64,000 nt of DNA, from the IMG/VR virus record IMGVR_UViG_3300033156_000272, positions 23,094 to 87,093 of that record. The stretch is one strand, 5' to 3'. Position 1 is the first letter of the stretch. Every line of letters starts with the position of its first letter. The translations under genes and the position numbers were made by a program. The stretch comes from a virus. A model generated the notes under the pieces. The model saw only the letters and a list, made by a program, of their open reading frames with translations. It searched no databases and had not been told where the DNA came from. This document shows, one piece after another, positions 4,621 to 46,392 of the stretch.

Positions 4621-7600
4621 ATGCCGATTGATATTCCCCTTGGAAATGTAGTAACAAGTTTCACAACACATGGTGAATCAGCAGTAGTAGCTGGTGCTAT
4701 GGCTGTGGACAAAAATCTCAACCAAGTGAGGAATACAGGAGACAGCCTCCGCAACACTTTTCTATTTCTTTCTTTTGGAATGCTCGCCGCTGGCGGGATG
4801 ATGTCTCGTATGGGAAAGCGATTGACAAACCTTTCTGATACGATGAGAGATACATACGCACAAATTGAGTTTGGTTCCGTTGTTGTAGGAACTATGCTCG
4901 GCAATGTAGATGAATCCATGAAAGAAGTCATGGAAACAGCAATAAGGCTTGGTCGTGAGACCGAGCGTACAGCTCAAGACGCTGTTGATGCAATGCGTAG
5001 GCTTGCAATGGCGGGTTTCGACACTGCAGAGACTATGGGTTCAGTCGAAGCAGTTCTTAAATTAGCAACAATCGCAGAGGTTGATGCTGCAGCGGCAGCA
5101 GAATTGGCTGCTGGTGTTTTTCGTTCATTTGGATTTGAAGCACAAACTGCAGCTGATGCTGCTGCGGGAATGACAGAAGTGGTTAGTATGCTTGCGGCGG
5201 CTGCCTCAAGTAGTGCCGCAACTGCAGGGGAGCTGGCCGAAGCACTAAAGTTCGTTGGTGTAGTTGCGCAAGAAGTAGGATATACTGTCGAATCTGTACT
5301 ATCTGCATTGATGATTGGTGCAGATAACATGGTTAAGGCTGGAATAGCTGGTCGTGGATTGCGTATGTCCCTACTCAAACTATCTGGTCGAGTGGAAGCT
5401 ATGAATGAAAATACGCTCTCACTTAGTGAAGCAATGCGAAAGTACAATCTCGAACTTTCTGACGCACAAGGAAACCTAAAGCCCCTCCCTGATCTCGTTG
5501 ATGAATTCAGCGAAAAGCTCGGAGATCTTACCCAAACAGAGAAACTATGGATTCTACAGCAACTCACGACTGTTCGTGGGAGCACGCTATGGCTTGCGAT
5601 GATGCAGGAAGGGGGAGACGCACTACGCCAGAATGAGGCCATGTTGCAGATTAGTGCGGCCAGAGAAGCCATATCTACAAAGACCAGAGAAGATTCAATT
5701 ACAGTGCTTAAGAGATATAGAAGTAATATAGAGGATAGTGCGTCTGGTCTTCAGTGGCTAGTTAATGAGATGGGGTATACGGTGGAGGAAGCCAATACAA
5801 TCAATGATGCAGTATTTGCGCTGGCCGATAATCAGTCTCGATGGAATACTGCACTAGAAGAATCAAAAGAGCTTTCTGCAATAACCGCAGCTCGACTAGA
5901 AACCCTTGCGGGAACACAATTACTCCTCAAATCTAGTATGGATGCTCTCTGGGCTAGTCTAGCAGAAGGGGTTATCCCTGTCTTCACGACATTCAACCAG
6001 ATAGTACGAAGTCTTGCAGATTGGTTATCAACCCTCCCTGGCCCAATAAAGGCAATCATAGCACTTCTTGTACTAGCAACTGGAGTAATCCTTACAATAT
6101 TAGGCGCTATGTTCAAGTGGGCTGGTACTATATTTATGCTTAATGCCGCGATCGCTGCTCTTGACAAAAAAGAGATGAAGAATATTGGTATAATGGGTCT
6201 CTGGTGGTTAAGCATAAAGAATATCTCTGGTGCGTCAAGGGGACTTGCTAGAGATGTTTTCCTCAAGAGCAGGGTAGTAGAGGCCGATAATAAAACCATC
6301 GCCTCTCATGTTACTCTCCTTTCTGCTGAAGCAGCTCAATACAATATAACAAGTGGCGCAGTAATGACAGAAGCGGTCATTATACACGAAAGTACTGGAG
6401 CAAAAATCAAACACAAACTCGCCACAATAGGACAGACAATCACCCTCAAGCTCAATACAATCGCCCTCAAAATAAGCACTGCAGTAACGGTATTTCACAC
6501 CAAGATTCTTCGCATGGCCACTACAGGAGAGGCTCTTCATGCTTCTGCAATTCTTTCGAAGACGGGTGCACTCCGAGGACAAATTCTTGTTCTCAAAATA
6601 TCAATTAGTGCAACAATAAGTCGTACTCTCGCAACAATAAAAGACACCATTGCAACAAAGCTATCTGCTGCTGCAGAATGGATTAGGACACACTCACTAC
6701 TAGCCGCAATAGCAACTACGGCCATGCTCACTGCAAAGATACTGTTCAATACAATTGCACTGGGGGCAAATCTAGCACTTATAGGGATGCATACTGCGGC
6801 CACTATTACATGGGCAGCTGCTAAGTGGGTGGCTACTGCTGCAACTGGCGTTCTCACTACTGCAATGTGGGCACTCAATGCTGCGATGTATGCAAACCCA
6901 CTGGTATGGATAATTGCTGGAATCGCCGGTCTGATTGCAATAATATACCTCCTAATCACCAATCTAGACAAGGTGGTTGAAGTCTTTAGTAAACTAGCAT
7001 CACTCATAGGGGGATTCTTTAAGTCCGTACTCGACGGAATAGTATCTTCAATCAGTTTTCTCGTTGGACTCTTTCAGTCACTTAGAGATATAATAGAAGA
7101 CACTCTCGGAACCTTCTGGGATATGGCTAGTGGGGTTGGAGCGCTTCTCGGCAATTCAATCATTCCCGATTATGTTGAACATGGTGTGGGTGAGATAGGC
7201 GATAGCTTTAAAAAGATGGAAGGTATGGCAACTAACTTCACGCAGAACGTTACAGCAGCTGTTGGGCCATCAGTTATTGAATCGCCAATTACTAATCCAC
7301 CAGTTATTGAACCACCAATTACTAATCTACCAATTACTAATCCACCAATTACTAATCTACCAATTACTAATCCACCAGTTATTGAACCACCAATTATTGA
7401 ACCACCAATTATTGAATCACCAATTATCAATCCACTGGCTATCGAGACATCACCAGTTATTGAACCACCAGTTAATGAATCATCGTCACTTTCTCGGGGT
7501 ATTGGCAACATATCACCAACACCGCCAGTAGAGCGCACAACATCTGTCAATGTTGGCTCGTCGATAGGTAGCGTTACCGTTGGCAGTGCAGAAGATTTGG

Positions 7601-42467: not shown

Positions 42468-42926
42468 ACCTACTCGTCATCAGACAGATTGGTACTCTCG
42501 CAGATTGGACAGTACATGTTGGGAGGATGGCCAAAGTCAGTGTGGCTGGTGTATCCGCAGTTGTTACATTCTATCATTGTATCACGTCTCTCCATGCTTT
42601 TGAGTCCCCGGTTTGACAAGACTTAATCCCTTTATCAATTTCCGCCTTCTCTTCGGGAGTGAGGTTTATGGTGTCTGTCTCTTCAATATAGTGAGGCATC
42701 TTCCTGAATGCAGTATTCGAGAAGCCAGAGAGCTTGCGGACAGCTCTAGAGAAAGCCATTTCAGTTCCAACAATAGTATCGAATGTATCGCTCTCGTTAC
42801 ATATTGATATTCCCTCTGCCTTGTATCCATCGTATGTATATACGATAACCTTGATCCATCGTCTTTCCGGCAACATTATTCTCACCACACGATATATCGT
42901 TAGTGGTAAAGCTCTTTCCGTGGTAG

Positions 42927-43000
42927 TGAGCCTGGAGGGATTCGAACCCCCGATCAATGGATTAAAAGTCCATAGCCATACCTAGCTAGGCCACAGGCTC
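42927..43000 (-). tRNA. tRNA-Lys(UUU)
   Basis: Acceptor GAGCCTG/CAGGCTC, anticodon arm ATGGA-CTTTTAA-TCCAT, T arm GGGGG-TTCGAAT-CCCTC. Confidence 0.93.
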
Positions 43001-43362
43001 TCTGAAGGCACGGTTAGCCACTCTGGATGCTTTCGAATGCAGCCCCGAGCTTTCTTTATTAGGTCATATGCATTATGTATTCCATTACTATGGTATTTGT
43101 ATAAGTAGTACGCTACTACTAGTGGACTTCTATCAATTCCAGCGTTACAGAATATGAGTACTTGTTTATTTGCATCACGATACGCGCGGATAATACTAGT
43201 GAGTGCGTTATAGTGATTCATGTTCACTTTCGTGGTTTTTTCATTGACATCAGCTATGTCACGACAATCAACAATGCGCCATCTACTATTATACTCATGG
43301 ATACTGATAAACTCTGCATCGTACACATCGCCGATCCATATTCCAGGGATAATCTCATCCAT
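42982..43362 (-). CDS. Dual-specificity phosphatase (CX5R)
   Basis: 'EIIPGIWIG', 'FCNAGIDRS', 'AYDLIKKAR'. Confidence 0.9.
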   Translation of the reverse strand: MDEIIPGIWIGDVYDAEFISIHEYNSRWRIVDCRDIADVNEKTTKVNMNHYNALTSIIRAYRDANKQVLIFCNAGIDRSPLVVAYYLYKYHSNGIHNAYDLIKKARGCIRKHPEWLTVPSESLWPS

Positions 43363-43547
43363 AATGACACCTTATTAGTTCCATTCGATTGTTATTTCAC
43401 CACTACATTCACCATCAGAACAGTATGCATTGATGTTCTTCTTTATCCAATCGAGTACATCGTCCTGGTATTTGTCCGTCAGTAGTTCCAGCATTTCTTC
43501 TACCATCTTGCATTCAGTATCCATCGTTCATTCCTCCTGATATTCAG

Positions 43548-43616
43548 ACCCGAGCGCAGGACTCAAACCTGCTTTTGTCGACGCATCAACTGAGACACAC
43601 TCAGGTGTCACCCGGG
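43548..43616 (-). ncRNA. tRNA-like RNA (acceptor and T arm, non-canonical middle)
   Basis: CCCGGGT/GCTCGGG; T arm GCAGG-TTTGAGT-CCTGC; internal CTGAG/CTCAG hairpin. Confidence 0.5.
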
Positions 43617-43625
43617 ATGATGAAT

Positions 43626-43791
43626 AGGCCGGGTAGGGATTTGAACCCACGACGGAAGTCCTGTTGCTAAGACTACTCGAACCGCGCGCCATGTACAAGC
43701 AACGTACGCTGAGATCTTTGTCTCGTAGGCGCTCTGGGAGGCCTCCTTAATGCACTCCCTTCTGGTGCATTACCTGACTATGCTACCGGCC
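43626..43791 (-). ncRNA. Expanded tRNA-like RNA (about 166 nt)
   Basis: GGCCGG/CCGGCC acceptor, D arm GCAT-AGTCAGGTA-ATGC, T loop TTCAAAT; a multi-hairpin insert replaces the anticodon arm. Confidence 0.65.
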
Positions 43792-43804
43792 ATTTTGCGA
43801 ATGT

Positions 43805-43878
43805 TGGTGCTCGCGGAAGGATTTGAACCTTCATCACCATAAAACACTGGTGTCATCGCCAGGTTAAACTACGCGAGC
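43805..43878 (-). tRNA. Atypical tRNA with encoded CCA and an 8-nt anticodon loop (identity undetermined)
   Basis: GCTCGCG/CGCGAGC-A-CCA; T arm GAAGG-TTCAAAT-CCTTC; ACCA-GTGTTTTA-TGGT. Confidence 0.6.
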
Positions 43879-43994
43879 AAGTCGTGGCTTTTTGATAACG
43901 CAGAAGCCTAACTGCCAACTTGGTCGGCTAATCACCCAGCCCGGTGGTAACACCATGGCCACTTCGCCTAGCCGAAACCATGCTCCAGGATTTT

Positions 43995-44093
43995 ATCGAA
44001 TTTTGTATCCTGTTCCCTAATCGTTCATCATTTTGAACTTTGACTCTTAATCGTTGAGTCCTGATGTTTGAATGTTGAACTTTCTAGTTCATC
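43995..44093 (-). repeat. About 12-13 degenerate 7-nt repeats (e.g. GTTCAAA, ATTCAAA, ACTCAAC)
   Basis: GTTCAAC ATTCAAA CATCAGG ACTCAAC GATTAAG AGTCAAA GTTCAAA (AT) GATGAAC GATTAGG GAACAGG ATACAAA. Confidence 0.7.
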
Positions 44094-44099
44094 AGTCTA

Positions 44100-44172
44100 T
44101 AATATGGTGGGATTCGAACCCACGACCTCAATCTCATATAGATTGCGCTCTACCAGACAGAGCTTCATATAT
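44100..44172 (-). ncRNA. tRNA-like domain embedded in the larger RNA (pseudo tRNA-Ile UAU)
   Basis: D arm GCTC/GAGC, CAATC-TATATGA-GATTG, T arm GTGGG-TTCGAAT-CCCAC; only a 5-bp acceptor, A8, A33, no CCA. Confidence 0.75.
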
Positions 44173-44260
44173 CCATCGAAGAACTCTTAACCCAGAGCTT
44201 AGGGGGAACGAGTTTACCCGCTCGTTCCACACGGGGGCGTGTCTTTAGGTTTTCGAGTGA

Positions 44261-44893
44261 TTAGCCGACGTTAATTGTTATCTTGGTCACGGCATTGCAC
44301 TCGCTCAAGGACTGGTCTACATCAGCCTTGAACTCATCTATCTCTTTGTCGAGTTTCTCGATGAGCTTCTCAATGCCTGCAGGATCAAAGAGTGACATAG
44401 CATTGGTATCACGATACGACTTGCTGATGTTCTCTACATCAATGTTCTGTACACCTTCTTTTCCCGCAATTTTCTCTAACATGGTTTTCAGGCTTACTTC
44501 CACACTGCTATTGGCCAACTCTACCTGGTCTTTGAGATGTGCAAACTGTGTTCTCATCTGCATGAGAAGAATTTCATCATACTGAATGCTACCCTTCCTC
44601 TCTATGGCACCCGCCACAGTATAACTTTCTCCTGCAATCTTTACAGAAGTAGATGCGTTCGACGCAACAACTGCGGTTTTGATGATGTTTCTGCGCTCAA
44701 TCATTGCACGGATACTCTGCAAGTTCTTTCTGCAATGTTTCTCCATATCTTCCTTCGAAGTACGGTGTACGGTAGTGGTCTCTTTTCCTCGTACTGCCGA
44801 TAGGAATATTGCATTTACGGTCTCCTTCAGTATGCGCTTATCGAGGAGCTTCAACTCCACTAGCGCACGTGTTACGGTCATTTCTTCCATCAT
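44261..44893 (-). CDS. DUF6847/DIP1984-like ('septicolysin'-annotated) coiled-coil protein
   Basis: 'TVTRALVELKLLDKRI', 'SNASTSVKIAGESYTVAGAIERK', 'VDQSLSECNAVTKITI'; family recognised from memory; GGAGG RBS. Confidence 0.6.
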   Translation of the reverse strand: MMEEMTVTRALVELKLLDKRILKETVNAIFLSAVRGKETTTVHRTSKEDMEKHCRKNLQSIRAMIERRNIIKTAVVASNASTSVKIAGESYTVAGAIERKGSIQYDEILLMQMRTQFAHLKDQVELANSSVEVSLKTMLEKIAGKEGVQNIDVENISKSYRDTNAMSLFDPAGIEKLIEKLDKEIDEFKADVDQSLSECNAVTKITINVG

Positions 44894-44904
44894 TCATTCC
44901 TCCG

Positions 44905-45195
44905 TTGGACGAGTCGGGAATTTAACCCATATAATCGTCCATGATGACATGTTGTTTCGTGAGAGCGACTCACTGGCACATACATGTAAAGCCAAGGCGA
45001 TTGCATCCGACATGCCCACCGTCGGGGAATATGTTACGACGTGTCTGGAGTCACACCAGATTGCGCAGGGGAAGCCTGCTGGTTCCCTTCACGTCGATAG
45101 AGTTGCCGGGTTTTTCTATACCGCGCCGGCTAGCGGTTCCAGCAAGGAGATGCTGGTTGCAGGGGTTTAGAGAGGGGTTCAGGGGGATTCGTCAA
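44905..45195 (-). ncRNA. About 290-nt highly structured RNA with paired ends and a T-arm-like 3' end
   Basis: GACGAATC/GACTCGTC-CA closing helix; GGG-TTAAATT-CCC; at least 7 hairpins; complementary loops. Confidence 0.65.
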
Positions 45196-45399: not shown

Positions 45400-45461
45400 T
45401 GGGAACGGCAGGACTTTAACCTGCGTCATCTTCTGCAGAGAATCGTTTGCTCCACGCTCCC
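45400..45461 (-). ncRNA. Truncated tRNA-like RNA (62 nt)
   Basis: GGGAGCG/CGTTCCC-A; T arm GCAGG-TTAAAGT-CCTGC; vestigial D and anticodon arms. Confidence 0.55.
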
Positions 45462-46098: not shown

Positions 46099-46392
46099 TT
46101 ACTCGTCTTCCTCGCTGTCGTCGTCCTCTCCCGGCTCTCCGCCAATCCAAAGGTAATGGATGTGTGCATCGACAGCTTTCTTCTCCACCAGTCCTCTCTC
46201 GACCATCTTGTTGACAGCCTGGTTGATGGTGGGTTTCGCGAGACCGGTTGCTTCGTGTATTTCCGCAACGGTAAATGCCTCGTCCTCGTGTTCGAAAAGG
46301 TACTTCATGATCGCTGGTTTCACGGTTCCCTTTGGTCTGCCTGTGGGTTCTACCCCTTTGCTGTCGAAATCGTCTCTACTTACTGGGCTCAT
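46099..46392 (-). CDS. Winged-HTH DNA-binding protein
   Basis: 'IMKYL....EAFTVAEIHEATGLAKPTINQAVNKMVERGLVEK'. Confidence 0.85.
   Translation of the reverse strand: MSPVSRDDFDSKGVEPTGRPKGTVKPAIMKYLFEHEDEAFTVAEIHEATGLAKPTINQAVNKMVERGLVEKKAVDAHIHYLWIGGEPGEDDDSEEDE

What the first reader, a model, noticed from the sequence alone, without database searches (positions are those of the whole stretch)
43626..43791. tRNA scaffold carrying a ~105-nt multibranch domain instead of an anticodon arm
Seen: a normal D arm and T loop with GAAG/CTTC closing the hairpins GGGAG/CTCCC, GCGCC/GGCGC (enclosing GAGA/TCTC and GTAC/GTAC) and AGTCTT/AGGACT. An alternative 8-bp helix TAATGCAC/GTGCATTA would disrupt the D arm. 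I could not rebuild a canonical anticodon arm by removing an intron. Inference: a natural tRNA-scaffolded cargo RNA or a switch.
Basis: partly seen in the sequence, partly recalled or inferred. Interest (0 to 1): 0.7.

Follow-up and report, generated by a model that had tools for sequence, protein, structure and literature searches.

The report
Broken lysine-tRNA look-alike in archaeal virus
A virus that probably infects archaea carries a gene that starts and ends like a lysine tRNA but has about 110 unrelated bases where the decoding arm should be, so it cannot read codons and is most likely a decayed or re-used tRNA.

Summary
The sequence features are real. They lie on the minus strand, 43792 to 43626, in the tRNA island of an 87-kb tailed virus. 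The ends form an acceptor helix, a D arm and a T arm. Their sequence is that of archaeal tRNA-Lys. About 110 nt lie between the D arm and the T arm.

It failed. Excising one to three BHB-flanked candidates gave nothing better than shuffled controls. The same pipeline resolved natural intron-bearing archaeal tRNAs and two intron-bearing tRNA genes of related viruses.

The multibranch fold is no more stable than shuffled sequence (z -0.08). The proposed closing helix GAAG/CTTC has zero pairing probability. The frame has defects: a U·U at 1-72, a bulged T stem and a 6- or 8-nt hairpin loop.

A related virus carries, in a partly syntenic place, a 138-nt RNA with a perfect tRNA-Lys frame and an 82-nt, non-homologous centre. 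That is the only support for the scaffold idea.

Most likely this is a non-decoding tRNA-Lys relic, possibly still cut at its tRNA-like ends. No RNA data and no close homologue were available. The scan had noted this island on this window only.

The parts
43786..43792 (-). acceptor 5' strand TGGCCGG; the first base makes a U·U with position 72
   Evidence: six G-C pairs, mean pair probability 0.88
43767..43783 (-). D arm GCAT-AGTCAGGTA-ATGC, preceded by U8 A9 at 43785-43784
   Evidence: aligned to model positions 1-29 of the tRNA-Lys model with high posterior; two pair swaps compared with 80 of 80 family members; pair probability only 0.20.
43656..43765 (-). 110-nt centre that stands where a 17-nt anticodon arm should be
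   Evidence: z -0.08; no copy elsewhere in the genome; no similarity to the centre of the G001 element.
43736..43759 (-). hairpin GGGAG ... CTCCC
   Evidence: probability 0.52
43686..43732 (-). GCGCC ... GGCGC helix enclosing the GAGA/TCTC and GTAC/GTAC hairpins. It can also be drawn as a relaxed BHB (H TACG/TGTA, bulges AGA and CAT, 30-nt candidate intron 43692-43721).
   Evidence: About two such 9-bp BHB-like matches are expected by chance in the element (my estimate). Two were seen.
43657..43674 (-). hairpin AGTCTT-AGCAAC-AGGACT, the only anticodon-arm-like hairpin. Its loop is 6 or 8 nt, not 7.
   Evidence: probability 0.72
43748..43772 (-). alternative 8-bp helix TAATGCAC / GTGCATTA that competes with the D stem
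   Evidence: probability 0.45 against 0.20 for the D stem
43651..43655 (-). variable-loop-like CCGTC directly before the T stem
   Evidence: family consensus nGGTC
43633..43650 (-). T arm GTGGG-TTCAAAT-CCC(T)AC with one bulged T
   Evidence: Without the extra T it equals the T arm of the G001 element and of a tRNA-Lys of relative G022.
43625..43632 (-). acceptor 3' strand CCGGCCT plus discriminator A; no encoded CCA

Best explanation
This is a tRNA-Lys-derived gene of an archaeal tailed virus that has lost its decoding arm. The acceptor, D and T parts come from the archaeal tRNA-Lys family. About 110 nt of unrelated sequence, with no fold beyond chance, now sit between the D arm and the T arm. 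They cannot be removed as bulge-helix-bulge introns, so the RNA cannot read a codon. It is most likely a relic of a once larger viral tRNA array. It is probably co-transcribed with the island. If it still does anything, it probably does so through its tRNA-like top half, as a cutting site for RNase P and tRNase Z or as a decoy, not through a selected cargo fold. Shown: the descent of the frame, the lack of an anticodon arm, the lack of BHB introns and the lack of excess structure. Inferred: transcription, end processing and relic status.
For: Frame identity:
- The 5' frame pattern shared with the G001 element hit 109 metagenome stretches. Of the 80 returned as loci, 66 are 73 nt long, and 63 of those are tRNA-Lys by ARAGORN.
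- The same pattern hit 71 genome stretches. By title 65 are archaeal. Of the 52 of normal length, 50 are tRNA-Lys.
- A covariance model built from 16 such tRNA-Lys aligns the 5' half (19.3 bits, E 0.064) and the 3' half (11.9 bits, E 2.8) separately.

Not a tRNA:
- ARAGORN and Rfam do not call the element, even at E up to 10.
- No 5-bp stem with a 7-nt loop, U33 and R37 has BHB support.

No BHB introns:
- With one to three excisions the real element gives 7 ARAGORN-positive products, best weakest-motif quality 6.
- All 10 of 10 shuffled-centre controls reach that quality.
- As positive controls I ran 7 natural intron-bearing tRNAs with the same 5' frame. All 7 gave a product of 70-78 nt, and 4 of the 7 did so through a strong BHB to Lys or Met.
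- The pipeline also resolved the G003 tRNA-Pro and the first G001 gene.

No selected fold and frame defects:
- The centre has z -0.08.
- The frame has U·U at 1-72, a bulged T stem and a 6- or 8-nt hairpin loop.

Context of array decay:
- Closer relatives G021 and G022 (terminase 44-45% identical) have 18 and 17 matches to the tRNA-Lys-derived model R1, nearly all of ordinary tRNA length.
- This island has one canonical tRNA-Lys (76.1 bits) and several deviant tRNA-like elements.
Against: - The six G-C acceptor pairs, the T loop and the D arm are intact.
- The D stem differs from 80 of 80 family members by two swaps that keep pairing (T-A to A-T, C-G or T·G to T-A). This suggests the structure was under selection for some time, unless the element descends from a tRNA with that stem.
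- Viral genomes rarely keep dead sequence, yet the island keeps several tRNA-like elements with paired ends.
- A related virus has, downstream of a homologous 97-aa gene (41% over 83 aa), a 138-nt RNA with a perfect tRNA-Lys frame (56.3 bits with an 82-nt insert) and very stable folding (z -5.12, 0 of 200 shuffles). It also lacks a usable anticodon loop. That looks like a kept design, not decay.
- No transcript, population or close-homologue data exist to show relaxed selection.
Confidence: 0.5

Rival explanations
1. It is a member of a small class of virus-encoded RNAs that keep a tRNA-Lys frame and carry a fast-evolving structured domain in place of the anticodon arm. The frame would give processing by RNase P and tRNase Z, CCA addition and stability. 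The RNA would act as a decoy for enzymes or immune nucleases that recognise tRNA-Lys, or would carry a cargo.
For: - A second instance in related virus G001 (G001:6309-6446 = L087:1387-1524) has perfect acceptor, D and T arms, 56.3 bits to the tRNA-Lys model with an 82-nt local insert, and z -5.12.
- That instance is partly syntenic with this element.
- The D stem of this element carries compensatory swaps.
- The neighbouring deviant tRNA-like elements all keep their top halves.
- In bacteria, phage tRNAs, tRNA-Lys among them, are known to counter tRNA-cleaving defences (abstracts of PMC11464382, PMC11555353 and PMC12409363, seen in the listing).
Against: - There are only two instances, and their centres share no sequence or motif.
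- The centre of this element folds no better than shuffles.
- Its frame has three defects.
- No further member turned up in 7 more whole relative records fetched and scanned with the script (G002, G004-G007, G009, G012; G008 gave only weak candidates of 100 and 123 nt). Model R1 also found none in 50 records, and IMG/VR held no other match to the 5'-frame pattern.
- No partner protein was identified.
Confidence: 0.25
2. It is a multi-intron archaeal pre-tRNA whose introns use relaxed or unusual splice motifs that my search does not model. Splicing would give a working tRNA, for example Lys (a UCUUA pentamer lies at 43668-43672) or a type-II Ser-like tRNA read from the GCGCC/GGCGC helix (loop UACGAG|U, anticodon CGA, followed by a long extra arm).
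For: - Related viruses do carry BHB-intron tRNA genes. G003 has tRNA-Pro(UGG) with a 59-nt intron and a strict hBHBh' motif. G001 has a gene with a 63-nt intron and a strict motif.
- Cellular tRNA-Lys genes with this 5' frame reach 97 to 308 nt in total length, the excess over 73 nt being intron, and some have more than one intron.
- A relaxed hBH motif with a 5-bp outer helix exists at 43686-43732.
- 3 of my 7 positive controls were resolved only ambiguously, so multi-intron cases can be missed.
Against: - No combination of up to three candidates beats shuffled controls.
- No CTCTTAA- or CTTTTAA-type loop is present.
- The Ser-like reading has A33 and leaves 33 nt (43733-43765) unexplained.
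- The Lys-like reading leaves a 6-nt surplus, too short for an intron.
- About two BHB-like 9-bp matches are expected by chance (my estimate; two were seen).
Confidence: 0.12
3. It is a conformational switch. The 8-bp helix TAATGCAC/GTGCATTA and the D stem are mutually exclusive, and the choice controls processing or downstream expression.
For: In the ensemble the two structures compete at 0.45 against 0.20. A small ORF with a strong Shine-Dalgarno-like GGAGG follows about 100 nt downstream.
Against: An 8-bp match at that spacing is expected about 0.1 times by chance (my estimate). No ligand pocket, no Rfam riboswitch match, no conservation and no terminator or sequestering helix tied to the choice were found. 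The G001 element has no such alternative.
Confidence: 0.04
4. It is not an RNA of its own: untranscribed spacer DNA that resembles tRNA ends by chance or by old recombination between two tRNA genes.
For: No promoter or terminator signal is enriched in the region (promoters 31 against 41.5 +/- 6.2, terminators 14 against 11.0 +/- 3.6). The model R1 reports the two halves only as separate weak hits.
Against: The scanner control makes chance unlikely. The two ends pair with each other over six G-C pairs. The element lies 14 nt from the next tRNA-like gene, on the coding strand of a one-directional gene block.
Confidence: 0.05

Closest known systems
Archaeal intron-containing pre-tRNA (bulge-helix-bulge introns), in particular tRNA-Lys genes of Methanocellales, Methanothrix, Archaeoglobaceae and Thermoprotei
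   Same: Same 5' frame (acceptor and D arm), same type of T arm, comparable gene length (97-308 nt in genomes). Related viruses carry true examples.
   Different: There is no intact exonic anticodon arm and no BHB motif better than chance. The true examples keep the CTCTTAA or CTTTTAA loop and a clear hBHBh' motif.
138-nt tRNA-Lys-framed RNA of related virus G001 (IMGVR_UViG_3300037011_000606, 6309-6446)
   Same: tRNA-Lys frame, a long centre in place of the anticodon arm, no usable anticodon loop, position next to another tRNA gene and downstream of a homologous small gene.
   Different: Its frame is perfect and its fold very stable (z -5.12). This element has three frame defects and z -1.33. 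The two centres are unrelated in sequence.
Bacterial YrlA (Y RNA-like) tRNA mimics
   Same: A non-decoding RNA that keeps D, T and acceptor-like parts of a tRNA. Outside G001, the only IMG/VR match to the 5'-frame pattern has this look: a permuted tRNA-like module upstream of an ORF. The papers are PMC4201824 and bioRxiv 10.1101/312249, of which I saw the listing and abstracts only.
   Different: From recall, YrlA is circularly permuted (acceptor closed by a loop, ends in the Ro-binding stem) and sits next to rsr. Here the ends are the acceptor ends, no Rfam Y RNA match was found and no rsr was seen nearby. Reading the ORF in L215 as rsr is my own recall and was not tested.
tRNA-like processing modules (mascRNA of MALAT1, gammaherpesvirus tRNA-miRNA units, mitochondrial tRNA punctuation)
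   Same: A tRNA-like top half could serve as an RNase P and tRNase Z cutting signal inside a longer transcript. The island alternates tRNA-like elements with ORFs.
   Different: Those systems are eukaryotic and are named here from recall. Rfam mascRNA matched only the canonical tRNA-Lys, below threshold (23.4 bits). No processing data exist here.
Pseudo-tRNAs in phage tRNA arrays
   Same: The element lies in a viral tRNA island and has several lesions. Relatives have full arrays.
   Different: A 110-nt replacement of the anticodon arm with preserved, mutually pairing ends is not the usual pattern of point decay (statement from general knowledge).

Membership tests
Canonical tRNA (Rfam RF00005 / ARAGORN) | score at or above the family threshold (29 bits) or an ARAGORN call | tested here: not met
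   No match at the gathering score or at E up to 10. No ARAGORN call with or without the intron option. A low-threshold run gave only a poor Ala(cgc) call with a 71-nt intron.
Canonical tRNA (Rfam RF00005 / ARAGORN) | 7-bp acceptor stem, D arm and T arm in register | tested here: inconclusive
   Six G-C pairs plus U·U at 1-72. The D arm is intact. The T stem has one bulged T.
Canonical tRNA (Rfam RF00005 / ARAGORN) | 5-bp anticodon stem with a 7-nt loop, U33 and purine 37 | tested here: not met
   The only hairpin in place has a 6- or 8-nt loop. The search for stem + U33 + R37, with or without a 37/38 intron, gave 3 candidates, all with 0-1 of 4 central-helix pairs.
Archaeal BHB-intron pre-tRNA | hBHBh' or relaxed BHB motif at each exon-intron junction | tested here: not met
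   Strict motifs: none useful. Relaxed motifs: 76 candidates, no better than 10 of 10 shuffled centres.
Archaeal BHB-intron pre-tRNA | excision yields a cloverleaf of 70-95 nt | tested here: not met
   As positive controls I ran 7 natural intron-bearing tRNAs with the same 5' frame. All 7 gave a product of 70-78 nt, 4 of them through a strong BHB. The G003 tRNA-Pro and the first G001 gene were also resolved.
Archaeal BHB-intron pre-tRNA | a host with a splicing endonuclease and ligase | not testable with these tools
   The host is unknown. The virus itself encodes no RtcB, EndA or Rnl-type ligase. Relatives with BHB introns imply archaeal hosts.
Archaeal tRNA-Lys family (by descent of the frame) | 5' frame GGCCGR-TAGC-NN-AG-Y-CAGGTA-NN-GC and a matching T arm and acceptor | tested here: met
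   The pattern is met by construction (it was derived from this element and G001). The other carriers are tRNA-Lys in 63 of 66 normal-length metagenome hits and 50 of 52 normal-length genome hits. The model R1 aligns both halves.
tmRNA | tRNA-like domain plus a tag reading frame | tested here: not met
   The ARAGORN tmRNA search found none.
Bacterial tRNA with a group I intron | a group I core (about 200 nt or more) in the anticodon loop | tested here: not met
   No Rfam intron match at E up to 10. The insert is only about 90-110 nt. The size limit is stated from recall.
YrlA / Y RNA | permuted tRNA-like module with a Ro-binding stem, next to rsr | tested here: not met
   No Rfam match. The element is not permuted. 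I did not search for an rsr gene with a profile.

The most novel reading that the evidence does not exclude
Some archaeal tailed viruses may encode a class of non-decoding RNAs built on a tRNA-Lys frame, with the anticodon arm replaced by an 80-110-nt, rapidly changing domain (this element and G001:6309-6446). They would be matured like tRNAs and act as decoys or sponges for host factors that recognise tRNA-Lys, for example tRNA-cleaving defence nucleases, or as carriers of a small functional RNA. This would be an archaeal counterpart of the phage tRNA counter-defence known in bacteria.
Probability: 0.25. Interest if true: 0.75.

Novelty: new variant of a known kind. Interest (0 to 1): 0.4.

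Why it matters
If it is a relic, it shows how viral tRNA arrays decay, and it warns that standard tRNA finders fail in these viruses. ARAGORN did not call this element in the window. Rfam found no tRNA in G001 or G003, which carry BHB-intron genes.

If the scaffold reading is right, it would be the first natural tRNA-framed carrier or decoy RNA in archaeal viruses. It would also link archaeal virus-host conflict to tRNA-Lys, as recently found for bacteria.

In either case the frame points to an archaeal host. The pattern's genome hits are 65 of 71 archaeal, many of them Methanothrix and Methanocellales.

Tried and rejected
Searches that found nothing:
- blastn of 42800-44300 against the phage collection: no match.
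- Exact patterns from the 5' and 3' ends in IMG/VR: none.
- Exact 21-mer of the D arm in species genomes: none.
- The search for related loci with single proteins (the 210-aa neighbour, PolB): no relative.
- DNA search of the island in 12 relatives: only short matches with E 0.038 or worse. One of them led to the G001 element.
- BLAST of the element against its own genome: no copy of the centre.
- Earlier scan notes: only this window's own notes, no relatives.
- Sequencing runs: none was listed and no RNA holder was listed.

Readings rejected:
- C/D-box guide RNA inside an intron, as in haloarchaeal tRNA-Trp (recalled): no UGAUGA or CUGA box was seen on reading the sequence.
- Group I intron, tmRNA, Y RNA, GOLLD and ROOL: no Rfam or ARAGORN match.
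- Long-variable-arm (type II) readings from ARAGORN after single deletions: poor anticodon stems.
- A second BHB-like motif (43650-43679): it would damage the T stem, so I rejected it.
- Two fused tRNA halves: the ends pair with each other, and the model hit for an inner 5' half is weak (11.9 bits, E 2.8).

Host evidence is mixed:
- PolB and the sheath best match haloarchaeal viruses.
- The terminase best matches Streptomyces phages at 26% identity.
- The 210-aa neighbour has Firmicute homologues.
- The histone-fold match is below threshold (20.2 against 26.4 bits).
- The flanks of provirus G002 were not decisive.

Supplementary files of papers were not opened. Tables of tRNA genes of archaeal tailed viruses (PMC8651126, of which I read passages only) might list intron-bearing viral tRNAs.

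Full report
Where and what. The window is bases 23094-87093 of an 87,093-bp IMG/VR virus record with direct terminal repeats. It encodes a tail sheath, a tape-measure protein, a family B DNA polymerase and a large terminase. The finding lies on the minus strand. Read from 43792 down to 43626, it starts with TGGCCGG-TA-GCAT-AGTCAGGTA-ATGC-A. It ends with CCGTC-GTGGG-TTCAAAT-CCC(T)AC-CCGGCCT-A. It sits 14 nt downstream of another tRNA-like gene, in an island that holds one canonical tRNA-Lys(UUU) (42927-43000, 68.7 bits to Rfam tRNA) and two deviant tRNA calls (43805-43878 and 44100-44172).

Checking the observation. ARAGORN and Rfam do not call the element, even at E up to 10. I wrote a scanner for a T arm, a pairing acceptor, U8 and a D arm at a total length of 100-260 nt. 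It found one hit in the whole genome, this element. It found 0.33 hits per replicate in 757,326 shuffled bases. The tRNA-like frame is therefore real.

The multibranch domain is a different matter. Dinucleotide shuffles average -30.1 +/- 3.4 (z -0.08), and 136 of 300 fold at least as well. The whole element has z -1.33. Pair probabilities in the full-length ensemble are: acceptor 0.88, D stem 0.20, rival 8-bp helix 0.45, T stem 0.23, GAAG/CTTC 0.00. The frame also has a U·U at 1-72 and a bulged T in the T stem.

Which tRNA it comes from. The 5' frame resembles that of an element in a related virus (see below). The IUPAC pattern common to both hit 109 metagenome stretches. Of the 80 returned as loci, 66 are 73-nt genes. 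ARAGORN reads 57 of these as Lys(CTT), 6 as Lys(TTT), 2 as Met and 1 as Ala. In species genomes the pattern hit 71 stretches. By record title 65 are archaeal: Methanothrix and Methanotrichaceae, Methanocellales, Archaeoglobaceae, Thermoprotei and haloarchaea. Six are bacterial. Of the 52 of normal length, 50 are tRNA-Lys.

A covariance model built from 16 distinct tRNA-Lys of this set gave these scores:
- the window's canonical tRNA-Lys: 76.1 bits;
- the 44101-44172 element: 50.4 bits;
- the 5' half of this element (43734-43792): 19.3 bits, E 0.064;
- the 3' half of this element (43626-43682): 11.9 bits, E 2.8.

The D stem differs from all 80 metagenome family members by two swaps that keep pairing.

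Is the host archaeal? PolB best matches haloarchaeal myoviruses over its full length at about 25% identity; all 15 listed rows are such viruses. The sheath matches only Halobacterium phage ChaoS9, 2 records. Sigma-70-type promoters and intrinsic terminators are not enriched. The strongest evidence comes from relatives. I aligned 17 terminase homologues (51% identity or less) and used the alignment to find 80 related IMG/VR loci. Rfam tRNA found nothing in the complete relatives G001 and G003. My scanner, however, found long tRNA genes in them.
- G003:79434-79564 (minus) has a textbook hBHBh' motif: outer helix 6 bp, central helix TTTG/CAAA, bulges GGA and ATA, inner helix 7 bp. It has a 59-nt intron at 37/38. 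After excision in silico ARAGORN calls a 74-nt tRNA-Pro(TGG).
- G001:6169-6304 has a strict motif and a 63-nt intron, and becomes a 72-nt tRNA call.

These viruses therefore rely on an archaeal splicing endonuclease. The mixed signals are that the terminase best matches Streptomyces phages and that the neighbouring 210-aa gene has Firmicute homologues.

Testing the intron reading.
- A strict BHB scan gave no useful motif.
- All single deletions of 8-139 nt gave 35 ARAGORN calls. The best deletes 43676-43766 and yields a 77-nt cloverleaf with an 8-nt anticodon loop. The others have poor stems.
- A direct search for a 5-bp stem, U33 and R37, with or without a 37/38 intron, gave 3 candidates with 0-1 of 4 central-helix pairs.
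- Combinations of up to three relaxed BHB candidates (76 candidates, 437 products of 70-95 nt) gave 7 ARAGORN-positive products, with a weakest-motif quality of 6. Ten controls with a shuffled centre gave 1-9 positives with quality 6-10, so 10 of 10 reach the observed value.
- The pipeline is sensitive. In 7 natural intron-bearing tRNAs with the same 5' frame it found a product of 70-78 nt in all 7. In 4 of them it did so through a strong BHB to the expected Lys or Met; 3 were ambiguous.

The best BHB-like motif here (GCGCC|TACG|AGA ... TGTA|CAT|GGCGC, candidate intron 43692-43721) has no inner helix, gives a loop with A33, and leaves 33 nt unexplained. About two such 9-bp matches are expected by chance (my estimate), and two were seen. 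The virus encodes no RtcB, EndA or Rnl-type ligase.

A second instance. G001:6309-6446 (L087:1387-1524) lies directly after the intron-bearing gene of G001. It is a 138-nt RNA with a perfect 7-bp acceptor, D arm and T arm. It scores 56.3 bits to the tRNA-Lys model with an 82-nt local insert, and folds at -64.5 kcal/mol against -44.7 +/- 3.9 for shuffles (z -5.12; 0 of 200 as good). It has a stem CGAGT/GCTCG followed by AGGTC. No 7-nt loop with U33 can be made from the 30 nt inside that stem (my reading). A 42-nt hairpin interrupts its T stem. BHB excision does no better than shuffles. An identical copy lies on a metagenome contig (L266). It sits downstream of a gene 41% identical over 83 aa to the window's 97-aa ORF 46099-46392. 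The centres of the two elements do not align.

No further member turned up:
- 7 more whole relative records fetched and scanned with the script (G002, G004-G007, G009, G012) held none; G008 gave only weak candidates of 100 and 123 nt, and G002 holds one unclear 98-nt element;
- 50 records searched with the tRNA-Lys-derived model R1 had matches in 20, and all listed hits are 50-96 nt long;
- IMG/VR held 2 stretches matching the 5'-frame pattern: G001 itself and a permuted tRNA-like module that I read, from recall, as a YrlA next to rsr.

Relatives G021 and G022 have 18 and 17 matches to model R1, nearly all of ordinary tRNA length. Among the 147 tRNAs ARAGORN called in the fetched loci, a tRNA-Lys of G022 is the best match to the frame of this element, with 16 of 27 and 20 of 31 positions identical.

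Interpretation. Four things are shown. The frame descends from archaeal-type tRNA-Lys. There is no anticodon arm. There are no BHB introns detectable above chance. The centre has no excess structure. The most economical reading is a non-decoding relic in a shrinking tRNA array. It may still be cut by RNase P and tRNase Z, because its top half is largely intact; that step is inferred. The G001 element, the compensatory D-stem swaps and the several top-half-preserving neighbours keep a functional tRNA-framed RNA class alive as a rival. The counter-defence role of phage tRNAs in bacteria gives a possible rationale (abstracts of PMC11464382, PMC11555353 and PMC12409363, seen in the listing). PMC8651126 notes tRNA genes and possible intron-removal ligases in archaeal tailed viruses; I read passages only. 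My three searches listed no paper on tRNA-framed non-decoding RNAs in archaeal viruses. That is not proof that none exists.

Verdict. The element is a new variant of a known kind (tRNA-derived, non-decoding) and of moderate interest. The scan had noted this island only on this same window.

Noticed in passing
G003:C1:79434-79564 (minus; within L184) and G001:C1:6169-6304 (within L176/L087): Related complete viruses carry tRNA genes with textbook bulge-helix-bulge introns of 59 and 63 nt. The first becomes tRNA-Pro(UGG). The second has a Tyr-like loop CGGTAAA with G at position 33. Rfam tRNA found nothing in either genome.
   Followed up: yes
L087:1387-1524 (= G001:C1:6309-6446); identical copy in L266: A 138-nt RNA with a perfect tRNA-Lys frame. 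It has an extended hairpin in place of the anticodon loop, a 42-nt hairpin inside the T stem, two GACG tetraloops, and z -5.12. It could not be resolved into a tRNA by BHB excision.
   Followed up: partly
window 43805-43878, 44100-44172, 45400-45461, 43547-43616 (all minus): Other deviant tRNA-like elements of the island. 43805-43878 has an anticodon arm 3 nt too short with a UUUU-containing loop. 44100-44172 has the loop UAUAUGA with A33 and a flawed acceptor end. 45400-45461 is a 62-nt mini tRNA-like that starts right after a stop codon (19.5 bits to the tRNA-Lys model). 43547-43616 is a 70-nt element that ARAGORN calls only at low threshold.
   Followed up: partly
window 44261-44893 (minus) and loci L094-L173: The 210-aa gene (phrog_1491, labelled tail fiber) belongs to a family that sits inside phage tRNA arrays. 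38 of 80 IMG/VR loci have a tRNA within about 1 kb of the gene, and all 238 tRNAs called lie on the gene's strand. Homologues occur in Firmicute genomes. The tail-fibre label looks doubtful.
   Followed up: partly
window 44894-44910 and 43525-43541 (minus): Two ORFs of the island (starts at 44893 and 43524) share nearly the same ribosome-site and start context, GGAGGAATGAA(T/C)GATGGA. The second ORF is only 49 codons long (43375-43524).
   Followed up: no
window 42982-43000: The 126-aa ORF (42982-43362, weak match to dual-specificity phosphatase) overlaps the 5' end of the canonical tRNA-Lys by 19 nt.
   Followed up: no
L326, L341, L342, L347, L368, L384 (species genomes: Methanocellales and one Halobacteriota single-cell genome): The cellular tRNA-Lys(CUU) genes in these loci are 179 to 308 nt long. 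They are interrupted after CTCTTAACC, in the 3' strand of the anticodon stem, by introns of about 106-235 nt.
   Followed up: no
L215:1380-1560 (minus): A permuted tRNA-like module (T arm, acceptor closed by a loop, D arm) lies directly upstream of an ORF in a high-GC provirus-like contig. The same contig appears as Actinomadura rubrisoli. I read it as a YrlA next to rsr, from recall only.
   Followed up: no
G002:C1 near 13941 (minus), 98 nt: An element with a 7-bp terminal helix and a T arm (GTAGG-TTCAACA-CCTAC) but no D arm and no BHB solution, in a provirus related by its terminase.
   Followed up: partly
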